A DNA stretch of 64,000 nucleotides from Escherichia coli (GTDB lineage Bacteria; Pseudomonadota; Gammaproteobacteria; Enterobacterales; Enterobacteriaceae), in assembly GCF_030384885.1 (NCBI RefSeq), contig NZ_CP128613.1; one strand, given 5' to 3'. Below the pieces are notes generated by a model. The model ran no database searches. It saw nothing but the letters and a program-made list of their open reading frames with translations, and had not been told where the DNA came from. Numbering within the stretch: the stretch's first letter is position 1; each line of letters starts with the position of its first letter. Position numbers and translations under genes: made by a program. Shown here piece by piece: positions 3,314 through 61,429 of this stretch.

Positions 3314-4591
3314 TTACTTGCTGCTAGCCATTGCGGGGGTGCTATCAGCAGTACGAATTTTTTGGAACAGCAAAAAGGTAAAGACGATCACCATGCCAAG
3401 CGCCGCCATGCCCATCAGCCACATATTGCGGTAGGCTTCTGCAGCGGGCAGGGTGTCTTGCCAGTAGCCGATAATTGGGTAAACGAAGACATCCGGCAGA
3501 AATCCAATCACCGAACAAATACCTACCGTGGTGCCCATAATGTAAGACGGTGTTCTCGCTTCGCCAGGGCAGGCCCAGTACAGCCCGCGTGAGGCGTAAC
3601 AGGTGAATCCCAGAAGTAAAATCAGACCAATCCCCATCGCGACCGATTGCGGGTTAGAGTTCGTGATGAGCAGGGCAGTTAACGCCAGCAGGCCGAGTAC
3701 GGAAAGTATTTGAATCACGCGGGTAGGGGATTTCACTTTGCTGTAGGTGGTGATAATGCCACCAAGTGGGCCGCACAGTGCGCGGAAGATTTTGTTGATC
3801 ACAATCCCCATGTAGCTCGCCGCCACCAGCGACATGCCGTACATTTCGGTCAGATAGTTGGTGGAGTAACTCAGAATGGCGTAGATGGTGAAGACGCCAA
3901 AAATCACCATGCTGCAGTACCATGTGGTGCTGATGCGCAAAACGGCCAGGATGTCGCTAAGCTGGAATGACTGTTTTTCTTCGTTATTGGCATTGCGCAG
4001 GTTGTTGTTATCGCTAACAAAAAACCAGCACAGAATCCCCAATAAAATGTAGACCACACTATAGATGATAATGACCGTTTTCAGGCTGGCGCTGTCATCC
4101 GGTGCAAAGCGAGAAAAGACCCACATGGTAAACACCGCCAGCGACATTACACCGACGCCGCGCAGCCCTTCCATCCAGCCCATAATTTTCCCCTGCTCGC
4201 TATGATCGCCAAGCAACGATGCGGCTTTAATCGACACCGACCACAGCATTAAAATCGTCGTTATCGCAAAGGCGACCTGAATACAGAGCATTACCCACAG
4301 CGGTGGATACGTTGCCATTAACAGACCCAGCAATCCGGTAATGATCATCGCGGAAGTAATCATTTTGCGATGCGAAAATTTATCGGCAATAACGCCGCTG
4401 GGGGCATAAAGAATAATAGCCGCAATACCAAAGGTACTCATTATTAAACCTATCTCGGTATTGCTGAATCCCATAAATTTAGCCATGGGAATTTGATAAA
4501 TATAACGTAAATAAGCCAGATCAAAACTAACGCCGCCACTAAAACTAATTATCGCGAGGGTTATCCAACGGCGATATGAGTTGTGTTGCAT
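3314..4591 (-). CDS. yqcE: MFS transporter (425 aa)
   Basis: Full-length hydrophobic ORF with multiple predicted TM segments. Confidence 0.88.
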   Translation of the reverse strand: MQHNSYRRWITLAIISFSGGVSFDLAYLRYIYQIPMAKFMGFSNTEIGLIMSTFGIAAIILYAPSGVIADKFSHRKMITSAMIITGLLGLLMATYPPLWVMLCIQVAFAITTILMLWSVSIKAASLLGDHSEQGKIMGWMEGLRGVGVMSLAVFTMWVFSRFAPDDSASLKTVIIIYSVVYILLGILCWFFVSDNNNLRNANNEEKQSFQLSDILAVLRISTTWYCSMVIFGVFTIYAILSYSTNYLTEMYGMSLVAASYMGIVINKIFRALCGPLGGIITTYSKVKSPTRVIQILSVLGLLALTALLITNSNPQSVAMGIGLILLLGFTCYASRGLYWACPGEARTPSYIMGTTVGICSVIGFLPDVFVYPIIGYWQDTLPAAEAYRNMWLMGMAALGMVIVFTFLLFQKIRTADSTPAMASSK

Positions 4592-17865: not shown

Positions 17866-18018
17866 ATGCTGACAAAATATGCCCTTGTGGCAATCATCGT
17901 ACTGTGTTGTACAGTACTGGGATTCACGCTGATGGTAGGCGACTCGTTGTGTGAGTTGAGTATCAGAGAACGTGGTATGGAGTTTAAGGCAGTTCTCGCT
18001 TACGAATCGAAGAAGTAG
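17866..18018 (+). CDS. Hok/Gef-family type I toxin, HokE-like small membrane peptide (50 aa)
   Basis: ATG 17866 after GGGAGG; peptide [50 protein letters not shown] has one TM helix and the conserved Hok C-terminal pattern; 8-bp stem-loop 18024-18045 follows the stop. Confidence 0.75.
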
Positions 18019-18256
18019 CCACCACGCGGGGGTAAAACCCCGCGTATTGAATTGTGATGGTTTGGTCTCCTGCACCCTTTTTTTCATTTATATTGTTTTT
18101 GTGAATATTATGCCTGTGTTTATTATTTATATATATCACAGATGAAAATCATTGAATTATTCATAATGTGAATATTTTATTGAACGATATATATCACAGA
18201 TAATTTTTAATATATGCGTAAATATCCTTTAAGTTTTACTGAAGGATAAAAACATT

Positions 18257-19690
18257 GTGACTTTCTTTGATTTCTGGGGAAAAACCCGACGTGGCGAGAA
18301 AGAGGGTGGCGACGATTATCACCTTCTTTGCTGGCATTCGCTGGATGTAGCCGCGATAGGCTATTTAATGGTCAAAAACAACTGTTTCGGGCTGGCTGAC
18401 TATTTTCGTCAATTAGGTTTCGCTGACACGGATCAGGCAGCACAATTTTTCGCCTGGTTGTTGTGCTGGCACGATACTGGAAAATTTGCCCGCTCATTTC
18501 AGCAACTTTACCTGCACCCACAACTCAAGGTTCCGGAAGGCGCAAGAAAGAATTACGAAAAGATCTCTCATTCAACGCTGGGTTACTGGTTGTGGCATCA
18601 TTATTTAATTGAATGTGAAGAGTTGCTTCCTTCATCTTCACTCTCTTTGCGCAAACTTAAACGAGTAATAGATATGTGGATGCCCGTGACGACCGGGCAT
18701 CATGGTCGGCCTCCTGACCGTATCGATGAACTGGACAACTTTCTGCCTGAAGACAAAGCTGCCGCACGGGATTTTCTCCTTGAAATCAAGGTACTGTTTC
18801 CGCTCATCGAGATCCCTACATTCTGGGATGATGACGAGGGCGTTGAACTTATAAAACATTTTTCCTGGTATATCTCTGCAACCGTCGTACTCGCAGACTG
18901 GACGGGATCGTCAACGCGGTTTTTTCCACGCGTTGCACAGGCAATGGATATTAAAGATTACTGGCAGAAGGCTTTAGTTCAGGCTCAAAACGCATTAACC
19001 GTCTTTCCCCCAAAAGCAGAAAGCGCGCCTTTCACTGGAATTAATACGCTGTTTCCTTTTATTGAGAACCCAACACCGTTACAGCAAAAGGTGTTGGATC
19101 TGGATATCAGCCAGCCAGGACCACAGTTGTTTATTCTGGAAGATGTGACTGGCGCAGGTAAAACAGAAGCGGCGCTTATCCTGGCGCACAGGTTGATGTC
19201 TGCGGGGAAAGCACAGGGTTTGTTTTTTGGTTTGCCAACAATGGCAACGGCCAATGCCATGTACGATAGGCTGGTAAAAACCTGGCTTGCTTTCTATTCG
19301 CCACAATCCCGCCCCAGCCTGGTGCTGGCACACAGCGCTCGTTCGCTAATGGATCGCTTTAACGCATCGCTGTGGTCTGGTGATTTTGTGGGGTCAGAAG
19401 AACCGGATGAACAAGCGTTCAGTCAGGGATGTGCGGCCTGGTTTGCTGACAGTAACAAGAAGGCGTTGCTGGCTGAAATTGGCGTCGGCACGCTGGATCA
19501 GGCGATGATGGCGGTGATGCCGTTCAAACATAATAATCTGCGGCTTCTGGGGCTGAGTAACAAAATCCTGCTAGCCGATGAGATCCACGCCTGTGACGCT
19601 TATATGTCGTGCATTCTTGAAGGGCTGATCGAGCGGCAGGCGCGTGGCGGAAACAGCGTTATTTTGCTTTCTGCTACGTTGCCGGGGTAG
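18257..19690 (+). pseudogene. cas3: Truncated cas3: N-terminal HD nuclease plus start of helicase domain, about 477 codons of an expected roughly 890
   Basis: GTG start; HD-domain N-terminus (HLLCWHSLDVAA...WHDTGKF), Walker A GAGKT and LLSATLP motifs; ORF stops at 19690 and a cas5e fragment begins 57 bp later. Confidence 0.85.
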
Positions 19691-19746
19691 GGATACGGCG
19701 TGATGACACCGAATGCTTAAACGCGTTTAATCGCCACTATTCACTG

Positions 19747-20304
19747 GTGGTTTGCGCCAGCCGTAACCCGCGCTGGGCACGGGATTATCACACGGTCCAG
19801 ATGCCAAAAGAGGTGCGTAAAGCGCGTTATTTCAGCCGTCGCGAAGAGTTGAGCGCCCCTGATCTTCTAAGCGCGATTATCTCCCGGCGCGACTACTACA
19901 CCGATGCCTGGTGGATGGTGGCCGTGGCAACAACAGCTGATGCGCCTTACAGCCTCGAACAGTTGCAGGAAGGTTTACGCCATCCGGTTTTTCCGCTTTA
20001 TCTGGGGCGAAAAAGCCATCCGCTGGCATTACCCCTTGCGCCGTTACTGCTTGAAGGTAACGCGTCTGATGCCTTACGTAACGCATACCAACAGTATCAG
20101 GATCGTTTCCACGAACTGAAAGTCTCACTCCCGAAACTTCAGGATGAATGCTGGTGGGAAGGGGAGCACGATGGCCTGGTCTCGAGCAAAATATTACGCC
20201 GCCGGGATGTTCCTTTAAATCGTCAGCAGTGGCTGTTTGGGGAACGCACCGTCAATCAGGGGCCGTGGCTCAGCAAGGAGGAACCATGTACCTCTCAAGA
20301 ATAA
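19747..20304 (+). pseudogene. cas5: C-terminal fragment of cas5e (casD), N-terminal portion missing
   Basis: Contains RDYHTV and YLGRKSHPL-type Cas5e motifs; ends overlapping the cas6e start as in intact I-E loci; no SD before the first in-frame GTG. Confidence 0.7.
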
Positions 20305-20932
20305 CCTTACATACCGGCCAGCTTTCGCCTGCGCAGTTACTGCATCTGGTGGATCGCGGTGAATATGTGATGCATCAGTGGCTGTGGGATCTTTTTCCTG
20401 GCGGCAAAGAAAGGCAATTTCTTTATCGTCGGGAAGAACTCCAGGGCGCGTTTCGCTTTTTTGTCCTGTCGCAGGAACGCCCGGCGGAAAGTGAAATGTT
20501 CACCATCGAATGCCGGTCATTTGCGCCGGAGCTGCGTACCGGACAATCCCTTTGTTTCAACCTGCGGGCGAATCCAACAGTCTGTAAAGCGGGTAAGCGC
20601 CACGATCTGCTGATGGAGGCGAAACGGCAGGTGAGGGGGCAGGCGGAAGGAAGTGATGTCTGGTTGCATCAACAACAGGCGGCGCTGGGCTGGCTGGCTG
20701 CGCAGGGAGAGAGAAGTGGTTTTACACTGCTGGATACCTCGGTCGATGCCTACCGACAACAGCAACTGCGGCGGGAAAATGCCCGGCAACTGATCCAGTT
20801 CAGTAGCGTGGATTATACGGGGATGCTGACGGTCACCGAGCCAGGGTTATTTCTGCAACGTCTCTGCCTGGGGTATGGCAAAAGCCGGGCGTTCGGCTGT
20901 GGTCTGATGTTAATCAAACCCGGAGCAGAGGC

Positions 20933-20936
<4 letters not shown>
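20286..20936 (+). CDS. cas6e: CRISPR pre-crRNA endoribonuclease Cas6e / CasE (216 aa)
   Basis: ATG 20286 after strong SD aaggagg; N-terminus MYLSRITL typical of CasE; C-terminal glycine-rich loop GYGKSRAFGCGL. Confidence 0.88.
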
Positions 20937-22146
<1,210 letters not shown>

Positions 22147-22242
22147 GTTACCCGTTCTTTAAAAATAAGGAAATGTTTGAATTTAGTTGGTAGATTGTTG
22201 ATGTGGAATAAAATTGTTTAAAAACAGATACGTATGCTTAGT
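22147..22242 (+). promoter_or_regulatory. AT-rich CRISPR leader between cas2 and the first repeat
   Basis: AT-rich, contains agttggtagattgt shared with the other leader. Confidence 0.65.
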
Positions 22243-22576
22243 GTGTTCCCCGCGCCAGCGGGGATAAACCGAATACCCAGCGCTATTTCGAGCGCGAGAG
22301 AGTGTGTTCCCCGCGCCAGCGGGGATAAACCGGAAATTTCGGAAATTAAATCCGCTCGCGATCGGTGTTCCCCGCGCCAGCGGGGATAAACCCCATGGCA
22401 GGAAGAGCGGATGATTTAGGGGTAAGTGTTCCCCGCGCCAGCGGGGATAAACCGAAGCCGGATCACATTTTCTTAGCGGAGCTGACGTGTTCCCCGCGCC
22501 AGCGGGGATAAACCGCTCTCGGTTCTGGGGTACTGTTACCCATAACTGAGCTCCCCCGCGTCAGCGGGGGAACTCC
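22243..22576 (+). CRISPR. Type I-E CRISPR array next to cas2: 6 repeats (GTGTTCCCCGCGCCAGCGGGGATAAACCG; third ends in C; last degenerate) and 5 spacers of 32 bp
   Basis: Repeats read at 22243, 22304, 22365, 22426, 22487 and degenerate at 22548. Confidence 0.95.
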
Positions 22577-41675: not shown

Positions 41676-41870
41676 CTGCTCTCCTTGTTAATTTAAGTGA
41701 TATTTTGTTTGATAATGTGAATATAAGCGCTGGAAGATAACGATATGGTGAGCTGATTCACAAAAATTAACATTGTGTGTTATTTTATGTGAACTAAGCG
41801 TTAGTTGCGCCGCGCACGTTTCGCAGGCAAATAGCGTAGAATGTCAGCAGGACAAAGGAAGGAGCAAAAG

Positions 41871-42638
41871 TTGATACCCGTAGAGCGTCGCCAAATCATC
41901 CTTGAGATGGTAGCTGAAAAAGGCATTGTCAGTATTGCTGAACTAACGGACAGAATGAATGTGTCACATATGACCATTCGTCGGGATTTACAAAAACTGG
42001 AGCAGCAGGGAGCCGTTGTGCTGGTGTCCGGAGGCGTCCAGTCTCCGGGACGCGTGGCGCATGAACCTTCTCATCAGGTAAAAACTGCGCTGGCAATGAC
42101 GCAAAAAGCGGCTATTGGCAAGCTGGCGGCAAGTCTTGTTCAGCCGGGAAGTTGTATCTATCTGGATGCGGGAACGACCACGCTAGCGATAGCACAGCAT
42201 CTGATTCACATGGAGTCACTGACTGTGGTCACAAACGATTTCGTTATTGCGGACTACTTGCTCGACAACAGTAATTGCACAATTATTCACACTGGCGGTG
42301 CAGTATGTCGGGAAAACCGTTCCTGTGTCGGGGAAGCCGCTGCGACCATGCTGCGCAGCCTGATGATTGATCAGGCTTTTATTTCTGCATCGTCATGGAG
42401 TGTGCGGGGGATTTCTACGCCAGCGGAAGATAAAGTCACGGTGAAACGGGCGATTGCCAGTGCCAGCCGCCAGCGAGTTTTGGTCTGTGATGCGACGAAA
42501 TATGGTCAGGTGGCGACATGGCTGGCGTTACCATTAAGCGAGTTTGATCAGATTATTACAGACGACGGTTTGCCGGAGAGTGCCAGTCGCGCGCTGGCGA
42601 AGCAGGATCTCTCTTTGCTGGTAGCGAAAAATGAATAA
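41871..42638 (+). CDS. ygbI: DeoR-family transcriptional regulator (255 aa)
   Basis: Probable TTG start at 41871 with aaggaaggag SD; DeoR HTH N-terminus. Confidence 0.8.
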   Translation: MIPVERRQIILEMVAEKGIVSIAELTDRMNVSHMTIRRDLQKLEQQGAVVLVSGGVQSPGRVAHEPSHQVKTALAMTQKAAIGKLAASLVQPGSCIYLDAGTTTLAIAQHLIHMESLTVVTNDFVIADYLLDNSNCTIIHTGGAVCRENRSCVGEAAATMLRSLMIDQAFISASSWSVRGISTPAEDKVTVKRAIASASRQRVLVCDATKYGQVATWLALPLSEFDQIITDDGLPESASRALAKQDLSLLVAKNE

Positions 42639-42688
42639 TGGCCTGCAATAACACCGGGTTACTCATGCTTCACAGAAGAAGCATGAGA

Positions 42689-43345
42689 CTACTTTATTTT
42701 ATAAAATGACAGGCGCCCACTTTCCGGCGAACCGGTATCAATATAAACCTGGTTGGCGAATGTCTGGATGTTATCAAACATCATATGTCCGAAGATAAAG
42801 CAGTCGGCGCCGTTTATTTCCTGTAACTCGCCTTTGAGCGATTTCAGTACGCGATCAACAGGCCAGAGCAATTCTCTCTCCGCTATTTCTTTGCCAAAGA
42901 GATATTCATTCCCCGGATAATCTGCATGCGCGATGACATATTTTATTATGTCGTTAGTGATTTAAACAATATGCGGAAGATTATGAAAACGTAGCAACAG
43001 GTCTATTGCTTCTTTTTGTTCCGTATCACTTAACTCAAAGAACCAGTCGCCACCACTGGCAAGCCACATATTGCCATCGCCGGTCGCGAACGCATCCAAT
43101 GCCATCGCTTCATGGTTGCCTTTGACCGATGTAAACCAGGGCTGGTTTAGCAGGCGCAGCACGTTAAGACTCTCCGGCCCACGATCAATATTATCGCCGA
43201 CAGAAATAAGTAAGTCGGTTTCAGGGCAAAAAGAGAGTTGATGTAAGCGGGATTGTAATAATTGATAGTCACCATGAATATCACCAACGGCCCATATATG
43301 GCGATAGTGATGGGCATTAATTTTTTGATAGCGTGTAGATGGCAT
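42689..43345 (-). pseudogene. pphB: Serine/threonine protein phosphatase 2 (lambda-phosphatase-like PPP family) interrupted by an in-frame TAA at 42962-42964
   Basis: Track ORFs 42962..43345 and 42689..42871 are in the same frame; N-part carries GDIHG, GDNIDRG and GNHE motifs, C-part carries the remaining histidine motifs; total 219 codons. Confidence 0.8.
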
Positions 43346-43450
43346 GGTTTTACCCTGTAAAATAAGATTTCCTATTATACAGGGTATTTTTATTTGATTC
43401 GTCAGTTGTCGTTAATATTCCCGATAGCAAAAAACTATCGGGAATTGTTA

Positions 43451-46012
43451 TTACACCAGACTCTTCAAGCGATAAATCCATTCCAGCGCCTGACGCGGGG
43501 TAAGTGAATCCGGGTCAAGATTTTCCAGCGCTTCGACCGCTGGCGACGTTTCTTCTGGCACTGAAAGCAAAGACATTTGCGTACCATCCACTTGCGTAGC
43601 GGCGGCGTTCGGCGAAATGCTTTCCAGCTCACGCAGTTTTTGCCGTGCGCGCTTAATAACCTCTTTTGGTACGCCCGCCAGAGCTGCAACCGCCAGACCG
43701 TAGCTTTTGCTCGCCGCGCCATCCTGCACGCTGTGCATAAAGGCAATGGTGTCGCCGTGCTCCAGCGCATCAAGATGCACGTTGGCGACGCCTTCCATTT
43801 TCTCCGGCAGTTGAGTCAGTTCAAAGTAGTGGGTAGCAAACAACGTCAACGCTTTAATCTTATTCGCCAGATTTTCAGCGCACGCCCATGCCAGCGACAG
43901 ACCATCGTAAGTGGACGTTCCGCGCCCAATCTCATCCATCAACACCAGGCTGTACTCCGTGGCGTTATGCAGAATATTGGCGGTTTCGGTCATCTCCACC
44001 ATAAAGGTTGAACGCCCGGATGCCAGATCGTCAGCCGCGCCCACACGGGTAAAGATACGGTCAATCGGGCCAATCTCGACTTTTTGCGCCGGTACGTAGC
44101 TGCCGATATAGGCCATCAGCGCAATCAGTGCGGTCTGGCGCATATAGGTACTTTTACCGCCCATGTTCGGACCGGTGATGATCAACATGCGACGCTGCGG
44201 CGACAGGTTCAGCGGGTTAGCGATAAACGGCTCATTCAGTACCTGTTCAACCACCGGATGGCGACCTTCGGTAATGCGAATGCCCGGTTTATCAATGAAG
44301 GTCGGGCAGGTGTAGTTCAGGGTATAGGCCCGTTCCGCCAGGTTTACCAGTACGTCGAGTTCTGCCAGTGCGCTCGCGCTCTGTTGCAACGCTTCCAGAT
44401 GCGGCAACAGCAGGTCGAACAACTCTTCATAAAGCTGTTTTTCCAGTGCCAGCGCTTTACCTTTCGAGGTGAGTACTTTGTCTTCATACTCTTTTAGCTC
44501 TGGAATAATGTAGCGTTCGGCGTTTTTCAGCGTCTGGCGACGCATATAGTTGATGGGTGCGAGATGGCTTTGTCCACGGCTAATCTGAATGTAATAACCA
44601 TGCACCGCGTTAAAGCCAACTTTCAGCGTGTCCAGGCCGGTACGTTCACGCTCGCGAACTTCCAGACGCTCCAGATAATCTGTCGCGCCGTCAGCCAGCG
44701 CTCGCCACTCATCCAGCTCTTCGTTATAGCCTGATGCGATAACACCACCGTCGCGTACCAGCACCGGCGGTGTGTCGATGATTGCTCGCTCCAGCAGATC
44801 GCGCAGCTCTGCAAACTCGCCCATTTTCTCACGCAGCGCCTGTACCGGTGCACTAGCGACATTTTCTAACTGCGCACGCAGCTCCGGCAGTTGCTGGAAA
44901 GCGTGACGCATACGGGCCAGATCGCGTGGGCGGGCAGTCCGTAAAGCCAGACGTGCCAGAATACGTTCCAGGTCGCCGACCTGACGCAGTACCGGCTGCA
45001 GCTCAGCGGTGAAATCCTGCAATGCGCCAATAGTTTGCTGGCGCTCAAGCAACACGCGGGTATCGCGCACTGGCATATGCAGCCAGCGTTTCAGCATTCG
45101 ACTCCCCATCGGCGTTACAGTGCAATCGAGCACGGAAGCCAGCGTGTTTTCCGCACCGCCCGCCAGGTTCTGGGTAATTTCCAGGTTACGACGCGTCGCG
45201 GCATCCATAATGATGCTGTCCTGCTCACGTTCCATAGTGATAGAACGAATATGCGGCAGAGTCGTACGTTGAGTATCTTTCGCATACTGCAACAGACAAC
45301 CGGCGGCACAAAGTCCGCGCGGCGCGTTCTCGACGCCAAAACCGACCAGATCGCGAGTGCCAAATTGTAGATTCAACTGCTGGCGCGCGGTGTCGATTTC
45401 AAACTCCCACAGCGGGCGACGGCGCAAGCCGCGACGACCTTCAATCAGCGACATTTCAGCAAAATCTTCTGCATACAGCAGTTCCGCCGGATTAGTGCGT
45501 TGCAGTTCTGCCGCCATCGTTTCGCGGTCAGCCGGTTCACTCAGGCGAAAACGACCGGAACTGATATCCAGCGTCGCGTAGCCGAAACCTTTACTGTCCT
45601 GCCAGATAGCCGCCAGCAGGTTGTCCTGACGCTCCTGCAACAGCGCTTCATCGCTGATGGTGCCCGGCGTAACGATACGCACAACTTTGCGCTCAACCGG
45701 ACCTTTGCTGGTCGCCGGATCGCCAATTTGTTCGCAGATGGCAACGGACTCGCCCTGATTCACCAGTTTGGCGAGGTAGTTTTCCACCGCATGGTATGGA
45801 ATCCCCGCCATCGGGATCGGCTCTCCCGCTGAAGCGCCGCGTTTGGTCAGTGAAATATCCAGCAGTTGTGACGCACGTTTTGCGTCGTCATAAAACAGTT
45901 CGTAAAAGTCACCCATCCGGTAGAACAGCAGGATCTCGGGATGCTGGGCTTTCAGCTTGAGATACTGCTGCATCATTGGCGTGTGGGCGTCGAAATTTTC
46001 TATTGCACTCAT
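43451..46012 (-). CDS. mutS: DNA mismatch repair protein MutS (853 aa)
   Basis: Walker [10 protein letters not shown]; full-length. Confidence 0.97.
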
Positions 46013-60701: not shown

Positions 60702-61013
60702 ATGCACATCATTTCGAAAGCGCCATTTGAAGAGTGCGCGCGCAAATATCCTAACGACGCTCTGGCTTTACACTCATTGTATCGGGTTATTAAGGAAACG
60801 GATTTTTCTACGCCAGAAGAAATGCGAACGGCGTTTCCCAACCTCGACAATTTTAAATATCGTAACAAATGGTACGTTCTGGATGTAGGCGGGAACAATC
60901 TTAGGGTTATTGCCTACATAAACTTTGTTAATAAGCGGTTCTTTGTGAAGCACATAACGAATCATGCCGAGTATGACAAACTGACACGTTACTACAGAGA
61001 GAACAGAGAATGA
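60702..61013 (+). CDS. HigB-family (RelE/ParE superfamily) toxin, mRNA interferase-like (103 aa)
   Basis: Pattern MHIISKA...AFPNLDNFKYRNKWYVLDVGGNNLRVIA...HAEYD resembles HigB; immediately followed by an overlapping antitoxin-like gene. Confidence 0.75.
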   Translation: MHIISKAPFEECARKYPNDALALHSLYRVIKETDFSTPEEMRTAFPNLDNFKYRNKWYVLDVGGNNLRVIAYINFVNKRFFVKHITNHAEYDKLTRYYRENRE

Positions 61014-61429
61014 CTGCTAATGCTGCACGCGCTGTTAAAGCAACAAGAGAACTGGTCAATGCAGTCCCCTTTCTGGGAGGCAGTGACTCAGAAGATGATT
61101 ATCGTGAAGCACTGGAACTGGTCGAATATTTGATTGAAGAAGATGACACCAATCCACTTATCGACTTTCTGGCGAGCCGCATTGCAGAGTATGAAAACAA
61201 CCACGAAAAGTTTGCAGAGTTCGACAAAGCCGTTGCTGCAATGCCGGTTGGCGTGGCGTTACTTCGCACGTTGATTGATCAACATAATCTGACCTATGCG
61301 GATTTGAAGAACGAAATCGGCTCTAAATCCCTGGTCAGTCAGATTTTGTCTGGACAAAGATCCCTGACGATATCCCACATTAAGGCACTTTCAGCCCGAT
61401 TTGGCGTTAAGCCGGAATGGTTTCTTTGA
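61010..61429 (+). CDS. HigA-family antitoxin with C-terminal XRE-type HTH (139 aa)
   Basis: Overlaps the toxin stop by 4 bp; C-terminal GSKSLVSQILSGQRSLTISHIKALSARFGV HTH resembles HigA. Confidence 0.75.
   Translation: MTANAARAVKATRELVNAVPFLGGSDSEDDYREALELVEYLIEEDDTNPLIDFLASRIAEYENNHEKFAEFDKAVAAMPVGVALLRTLIDQHNLTYADLKNEIGSKSLVSQILSGQRSLTISHIKALSARFGVKPEWFL

What the first reader, a model, noticed from the sequence alone, without database searches (positions are those of the whole stretch)
42689..43345. pphB carries an in-frame TAA nonsense codon
The N-terminal 127 codons and the C-terminal part of a PP2-type phosphatase are in the same reading frame, separated by a single TAA at 42962-42964. 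The translation around it reads ...NLPHIV * ITNDIIKYVIAHADYPG... and the total length is 219 codons, matching a full-length gene. This looks like a point nonsense mutation (probably GAA to TAA) inactivating the phosphatase, or a sequencing error.
Basis: seen in the sequence. Interest (0 to 1): 0.35.

Follow-up and report, generated by a model that had tools for sequence, protein, structure and literature searches.

The report
Recent nonsense mutation inactivating pphB
An Escherichia coli strain carries a very recent single-base change (GAA to TAA) that cuts the non-essential protein phosphatase gene pphB in half; it is a real but ordinary strain-specific pseudogene.

Summary
On the minus strand, 43345->42689 is a 219-codon pphB (prpB) frame interrupted by one in-frame TAA at 42962-42964 (codon 128). 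The closest complete genome (E. coli 2013C-4282) differs from the window at exactly one base in 851, G->T turning Glu128 GAA into TAA, and four other alleles all have GAA. A draft relative (GCA_038513185.1) differs at only 2 of 20,873 bases, one being this change, and keeps an intact 218-aa gene, so the mutation is very recent. It is unlikely to be a sequencing error: the same 127-aa product, on 100% identical DNA, occurs in three independent SRA-run assemblies. The truncated product keeps the N-terminal metallophosphoesterase motifs. It loses His140 and His187 (lambda phosphatase metal ligands His139/His186) and 42% of the fold, so it should be inactive. No polar effect is expected, because pphB is last in its transcription direction. 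pphB is inactivated independently in other E. coli (E153*, IS1, Mu-like prophage) and, by published report, in most Shigella. About 3.4% of random coding substitutions here make stops, so one nonsense change among the 10 coding differences from that genome is unremarkable. Ordinary; low interest.

The parts
42689..43345 (-). pphB (prpB) pseudogene: 218 codons plus the natural TAG stop, interrupted at codon 128
   Evidence: PGAP annotates the orthologous stretch as pphB in 2013C-4282 and other genomes.
42962..42964 (-). Premature TAA stop at codon 128, ancestral GAA (Glu). The mutated base is 42964 (coding strand G->T, + strand C->A).
   Evidence: Alignment A1; SNP list; L010 comparison.
42965..43345 (-). 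The 127 codons still translated. They contain the GDIHG (D22, H24), GDNIDRG (D51) and GNHE (N77, H78) metallophosphoesterase motifs.
   Evidence: ORF; Pfam Metallophos match for the 127-aa fragment, E=5e-12; alignment to lambda phosphatase 1G5B.
42689..42961 (-). Untranslated C-terminal remnant, codons 129-218 plus the stop. It encodes His140 (42926-42928) and His187 (42785-42787), equivalent to lambda phosphatase His139 and His186. It is otherwise undegraded.
   Evidence: It is identical to the intact allele of 2013C-4282.
42662..42687 (.). GC-rich hairpin between the convergent ygbI (41841-42638, +) and pphB stops. It is terminator-like and marks the end of the pphB transcription unit, so no downstream gene can suffer polarity.
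   Evidence: Consensus scan and gene layout. Function is inferred, not shown.

Best explanation
This is a genuine, very recent loss-of-function allele of pphB (prpB, serine/threonine protein phosphatase 2) in an E. coli clone closely related to strain 2013C-4282. A single G->T transversion changed Glu128 (GAA) to the ochre stop TAA. Translation ends after 127 residues. The product keeps the N-terminal metal-binding motifs but lacks the two C-terminal histidine metal ligands and the C-terminal 42% of the lambda-phosphatase-type fold. It is therefore expected to be catalytically dead and probably unstable. pphB is the last gene in its transcription direction and faces the convergent ygbI, so the only consequence is loss of PphB. 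The gene is dispensable and often lost, so the most likely history is a neutral or nearly neutral mutation on a young branch that purifying selection has not yet removed. Shown: the mutation, its polarity, its recency, and its presence in independent data sets. Inferred: loss of activity and neutrality.
For: The in-frame TAA is in the sequence. It is the sole difference in 851 bases from 2013C-4282, and four intact alleles have GAA. Draft GCA_038513185.1 differs at 2 of 20,873 bases, one of them this site, and encodes an intact 218-aa PphB. Three independent Logan assemblies (SRR34489103, SRR35948513, SRR35967224) carry the exact 127-aa product on DNA 100% identical to the window over 5.6, 4.1 and 1.1 kb. 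The window differs from 2013C-4282 by 13 SNPs in 64 kb: 7 synonymous (one of them also missense in overlapping hypB), 2 purely missense, 1 nonsense, 2 intergenic and 1 unclassified. This is ordinary clonal divergence. Alignment to lambda phosphatase 1G5B (E=7.5e-57) places His140 and His187 downstream of the stop. 3.4% of random coding substitutions in the window's genes create stops (4.2% in pphB), so the chance of at least one nonsense change among 10-12 coding SNPs is about 0.3. Independent pphB disruptions occur elsewhere: E153*, IS1 and a Mu-like prophage. Only 12 of 58 Shigella strains were reported to keep an intact prpB (Li et al. 2005, as cited in PMC2374995).
Against: No direct evidence on protein level or activity. 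The three SRA runs could be repeated sampling of one strain, which would show the mutation is real in that strain but not that it circulates. The remnant downstream of the stop has no further lesions. That fits a very young pseudogene but would also fit a suppressed or error-derived stop. Only the 64 kb window is available, so suppressor tRNAs elsewhere in the genome cannot be excluded.
Confidence: 0.9

Rival explanations
1. Sequencing or assembly error: the true sequence is GAA and the gene is intact.
For: It is a single-base substitution and the rest of the gene is pristine. None of 5,426 complete RefSeq E. coli genomes matches the 67-mer containing the TAA exactly.
Against: Three independently sequenced and assembled SRA runs contain the identical TAA, together with the lineage-specific neighbouring SNPs, at 100% identity over up to 5.6 kb. 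By inspection, the site does not lie in a GATC or CCWGG methylation motif of the kind that causes systematic long-read substitution errors.
Confidence: 0.04
2. The stop is bypassed, by an ochre-suppressor tRNA or by readthrough, so that a functional full-length PphB is still made.
For: The downstream 90 codons are intact and in frame.
Against: No tRNA gene lies in the window. UAA is read by both release factors and is the least leaky stop in E. coli (established knowledge). The stop is not conserved: every relative has GAA, including one 2 SNPs away, so this is not a programmed recoding site. TAA cannot encode selenocysteine or pyrrolysine. The intact downstream frame is fully explained by the youth of the mutation.
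Confidence: 0.02
3. Adaptive loss: inactivating PphB is positively selected in this clone, in parallel with the widespread loss in Shigella, rather than being neutral drift.
For: pphB is disrupted repeatedly and by different mechanisms in E. coli. It is reported intact in only 12 of 58 Shigella strains. The allele was seen in three separate runs.
Against: One nonsense change among about 10 coding SNPs is expected by chance roughly 30% of the time. 5,411 of 5,426 complete E. coli genomes still match this 851-base pphB stretch, 5,176 of them over at least 80% of it, so the gene is broadly retained. Recurrent loss is equally what relaxed selection on a dispensable gene predicts. There are no phenotype data.
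Confidence: 0.04

Closest known systems
E. coli pphB / prpB (serine/threonine protein phosphatase 2; NCBIfam NF007425, PRK09968)
   Same: The gene has the same position between mutS and ygbI. The repaired protein matches the equivalog model over 1-218 of 218 at 458.7 bits (cut-off 332). It is identical to WP_046081189.1 of strain 2013C-4282 apart from residue 128.
   Different: It carries a premature TAA at codon 128, so only 127 of 218 residues are translated.
prpB inactivation in Shigella (Li, Brown, D'Agostino, LeClerc, Cebula 2005, Microbiology 151:2671, as summarised in PMC2374995)
   Same: Loss of the same gene in the same chromosomal region next to mutS, and the same outcome of no functional PrpB.
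   Different: This is an E. coli with no IS elements or other Shigella-style decay across 64 kb that is collinear with an E. coli genome. The lesion is a single nonsense SNP. I could not read Li et al. directly, so I cannot say which lesion types occur in Shigella.
Bacteriophage lambda Ser/Thr phosphatase (PDB 1G5B), the structural prototype of this PPP subfamily
   Same: The alignment runs over residues 6-216 at E=7.5e-57, with GDXHG, GDXXDRG and GNHE conserved and the two later histidines aligned.
   Different: PphB is a chromosomal host gene. In this window the part of the protein carrying the equivalents of His139 and His186 is not translated.
Other truncated pphB alleles in E. coli assemblies
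   Same: These are independent inactivations of the same gene: E153* nonsense (L012; this 152-aa product is on 17 contigs), an IS1 insertion after about codon 174 (L014, GCA_019584445.1), and a Mu-like prophage with Mom/Com genes abutting codon 158 (L016, GCA_024430035.1).
   Different: They differ in position, mechanism and pphB haplotype. E128* is a separate event.

Membership tests
PphB equivalog (NCBIfam NF007425 / PRK09968) | Full-length match above the curated cut-off, and a better score than the PphA paralog model | tested here: met
   458.7 bits against a cut-off of 332, covering 1-218 of 218, with Glu restored at 128. The PphA model NF008516 scores 233.7, below its cut-off of 326.
PphB equivalog (NCBIfam NF007425 / PRK09968) | Conserved chromosomal position (mutS - pphB - ygbI) | tested here: met
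   One search shows mutS at 43451-46012(-) and ygbI at 41841-42638(+). The annotated genomes have the same order.
PphB equivalog (NCBIfam NF007425 / PRK09968) | Uninterrupted open reading frame giving the 218-aa enzyme | tested here: not met
   TAA at codon 128. The locus is therefore a pphB pseudogene, not a functional member.
PPP / lambda-phosphatase-type metallophosphoesterase (Pfam PF00149) | N-terminal motifs GDXHG, GDXXDRG and GNH(D/E) | tested here: met
   D22/H24, D51 and N77/H78 are present in the translated 127 aa.
PPP / lambda-phosphatase-type metallophosphoesterase (Pfam PF00149) | C-terminal histidine metal ligands (lambda phosphatase His139 and His186) present in the polypeptide | tested here: not met
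   The equivalents, His140 and His187, lie downstream of the stop. The ligand roles are taken from established knowledge of 1G5B and were not recomputed here.
PPP / lambda-phosphatase-type metallophosphoesterase (Pfam PF00149) | Mn2+-dependent phosphatase activity | not testable with these tools
   Needs an enzyme assay of the 127-aa product.
Nonsense-mutation pseudogene | In-frame stop where orthologs have a sense codon, the gene otherwise collinear, and the derived state polarised by outgroups | tested here: met
   Four intact alleles and the near-identical draft L010, which is intact and carries G at this site, all have the sense codon GAA. There are no indels.
Nonsense-mutation pseudogene | Reproducible in independent sequence data | tested here: met
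   Three SRA-run assemblies are 100% identical, including the TAA.
Programmed stop-codon recoding (readthrough, selenocysteine) | Stop codon conserved among relatives; UGA plus a SECIS element for selenocysteine | tested here: not met
   The stop is TAA, it is unique to this clone, and relatives have GAA.

The most novel reading that the evidence does not exclude
Loss of PphB is under positive selection in this E. coli clone, a small-scale parallel to the convergent prpB loss reported in Shigella. In that case the E128* allele would mark an adaptive rewiring of envelope or misfolded-protein stress signalling rather than neutral decay.
Probability: 0.05. Interest if true: 0.3.

Novelty: already known. 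Interest (0 to 1): 0.07.

Why it matters
It matters little beyond annotation. The locus should be annotated as a pphB pseudogene (E128*) in this strain, not as two genes or as an intact phosphatase. It adds one more independent case to the recurrent inactivation of pphB/prpB in E. coli and Shigella, which supports the view that the gene is dispensable in many niches. The SNP could also serve as a clone-specific marker, since it separates this clone from relatives only 2 SNPs away across 20.9 kb.

Tried and rejected
1. Suppressor tRNA: ARAGORN found no tRNA or tmRNA gene in the 64 kb window. The rest of the genome is unavailable.

2. Same allele in complete genomes: a 67-base query centred on the TAA found no exact match in 5,426 complete E. 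coli genomes. The best hits were 98.5%, one mismatch. The allele is therefore absent from that set, or rare.

3. Identifying the source strain through its HypB variant (A290V): this led to a draft relative with an intact pphB rather than to the strain itself. It was useful for dating the mutation but did not name the strain.

4. Reading the primary papers on prpA/prpB (Li et al. 2005; Missiakas & Raina 1997; Shi et al. 2001): none is held. Their content is cited only through papers that are held.

5. Functional restart downstream: the only in-frame start listed after the stop is a TTG at 42871, giving a 60-aa C-terminal piece. That piece holds one of the metal ligands and none of the N-terminal motifs, so I rejected it as a functional product.

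6. Promoter scan: no consensus sigma-70 promoter was found on the minus strand upstream of pphB, which is uninformative.

7. A systematic count of pphB pseudogenes across all 5,426 genomes was not possible with these tools.

Full report
**Observation.** Read on the minus strand from 43345 to 42689, the region is a 219-codon frame. It starts with ATG, runs 127 sense codons (MPSTRYQKIN...FHNLPHIV), hits TAA at 42964-42962, continues in the same frame for 90 more sense codons (ITNDIIKYVIAHADYPG...RLSFYKIK) and ends at the natural TAG. With the stop masked, Pfam Metallophos (PF00149) matches residues 16-188, across the stop. With Glu restored, the NCBIfam pphB equivalog NF007425 matches 1-218 of 218 at 458.7 bits (cut-off 332). 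The paralog model for PphA scores 233.7, below its cut-off of 326. Flanking genes are mutS (43451-46012, minus) and the convergent ygbI (41841-42638, plus), which is the standard E. coli arrangement.

**Ancestral state and age.** Against 5,426 complete E. coli genomes, the 851-base stretch around pphB has one near-identical match, strain 2013C-4282 (NZ_CP027579.1), at 99.9%. The alignment shows a single difference: G in 2013C-4282 and T in the window at the first base of codon 128, GAA (Glu) to TAA. Three more distant alleles also have GAA.

Over the whole window the two genomes are collinear. They differ by 13 SNPs and one 4,628-bp deletion in the window's cas operon. I classified the 12 SNPs downstream of position 4003:
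- 7 synonymous, one of which is also missense in the overlapping hypB
- 2 purely missense
- 2 intergenic
- 1 nonsense, the pphB change

An exact-sequence look-up with the window's HypB variant found a draft assembly, GCA_038513185.1. It differs from the window at only 2 of 20,873 bases, and one of the two is the pphB site. That assembly encodes an intact 218-aa PphB. The nonsense mutation is therefore derived and lies on a very short terminal branch.

**Real or error.** The exact 127-aa product has been called in three independent assemblies of public sequencing runs (SRR34489103, SRR35948513, SRR35967224), each between mutS and ygbI. Their DNA is 100% identical to the window over 5,581, 4,051 and 1,103 bases, and this includes the TAA. 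The two longer contigs also span the neighbouring window-specific SNPs at 42002 and 40896. A chance sequencing error would not recur in three runs, so the allele exists in a real clone. I cannot tell whether the runs sample one strain repeatedly. No complete RefSeq E. coli genome has the allele.

**Consequence for the protein.** PphB aligns with bacteriophage lambda Ser/Thr phosphatase (PDB 1G5B) over residues 6-216 at E=7.5e-57. The translated fragment keeps D22/H24 (GDIHG), D51 (GDNIDRG) and N77/H78 (GNHE). His140 (42926-42928) and His187 (42785-42787) align with lambda phosphatase His139 and His186, which established knowledge of that structure identifies as ligands of the second metal ion. 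Both lie after the stop, together with 42% of the chain. I infer that the 127-aa product is inactive and probably unstable; this was not measured.

Bypass of the stop is unlikely for four reasons:
- UAA is the tightest stop codon in E. coli (established knowledge).
- The window holds no tRNA gene.
- The stop is not conserved in any relative.
- The only downstream in-frame start listed (TTG at 42871) would give a 60-aa piece lacking the N-terminal motifs.

pphB is followed by a hairpin (42662-42687) and then by the convergent ygbI, so no polar effect on another gene is possible.

**Is it surprising?** Across the annotated genes of the window, 3.4% of all possible single-base substitutions create a stop (4.2% in pphB). 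With 10-12 coding SNPs, the chance of at least one nonsense change is about 0.3. On a branch this young, purifying selection has had little time to act.

pphB is also a known soft target. The sequence cluster that holds the 127-aa fragment contains other truncated forms, and I checked three at DNA level:
- a different nonsense codon, E153*, whose 152-aa product is found on 17 contigs
- an IS1 insertion after about codon 174 in a 4.69-Mb contig
- a Mu-like prophage (Mom and Com genes) abutting codon 158

Li et al. 2005, as summarised by Hershberg et al. (PMC2374995), reported that only 12 of 58 Shigella strains kept an intact prpB. An E. coli within-patient study lists pphB, together with its neighbour mutS, among genes hit by large deletions (PMC7845604). 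The reported function of PrpA and PrpB is phosphoprotein phosphatase signalling of protein misfolding through CpxRA and the heat-shock response (Missiakas & Raina 1997, cited through PMC6213207 and PMC2374995). I could not read the primary papers.

**Comparison and verdict.** The locus is pphB by sequence and by position, but it fails the one feature needed to be a functional member, an open frame. It is best filed as a young nonsense pseudogene of a known, dispensable gene. The rivals each keep a few per cent: sequencing error, suppression or readthrough, and adaptive rather than neutral loss. The tests that would settle them are listed under the next steps. Nothing here departs from known biology. 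The finding is correct, well observed and ordinary.

Noticed in passing
window 19680-19681 (junction); cas genes roughly 18200-22200: Relative to E. coli 2013C-4282, the window lacks 4,628 bp of the type I-E cas operon: the 3' part of cas3, casA, casB, cas7e and the 5' part of cas5e, joined at a 2-base microhomology. cas3 is already annotated as frameshifted in the reference, so the CRISPR-Cas system looks defunct in this lineage, while cas6e, cas1e and cas2e remain.
   Followed up: partly
window ~276-1219 and ~22243-22514: CRISPR arrays flank the region, placed by coordinate mapping from the reference annotation. Tandem Repeats Finder picked up part of the first array at 459-609, with the type I-E repeat GAGTTCCCCGCGCCAGCGGGGATAAACCG.
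   Followed up: no
window 42600-43450 compared with 30000-54999: pphB is far more divergent among E. coli than its surroundings. 5,044 genomes are only 90-95% identical over the pphB stretch, whereas almost all are 95-99% identical over the surrounding 25 kb. [quoted passage not shown]
   Followed up: partly
L016:1678-2602 (GCA_024430035.1) and L014:1729-1993 (GCA_019584445.1): In other E. coli assemblies pphB is interrupted by a Mu-like prophage end (Mom and Com genes directly after codon 158) and by IS1 (after about codon 174). L012 carries a separate nonsense allele, E153*.
   Followed up: partly
window 51238: One SNP relative to 2013C-4282 falls in the hypB/hypC overlap. It is synonymous in hypC codon 2 and changes the last residue of HypB (A290V). 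The V290 form is on at least 24 contigs in public data, so it is a lineage allele.
   Followed up: partly
window 43417-43445: A perfect 11-bp-stem palindrome sits immediately downstream of the mutS stop (43451) and upstream of pphB. It is terminator-like but has no T-run on the minus strand. Whether pphB is co-transcribed with mutS or has its own promoter is not resolved, and no consensus promoter was found on the minus strand.
   Followed up: no
window ~17866-18018 and ~60702-61429: Toxin-antitoxin modules, placed by coordinate mapping from the reference annotation: a Hok/Gef family gene next to cas3, and a HigB/HigA pair downstream of hycI. One of the strain SNPs (60613) lies just upstream of higB.
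   Followed up: no
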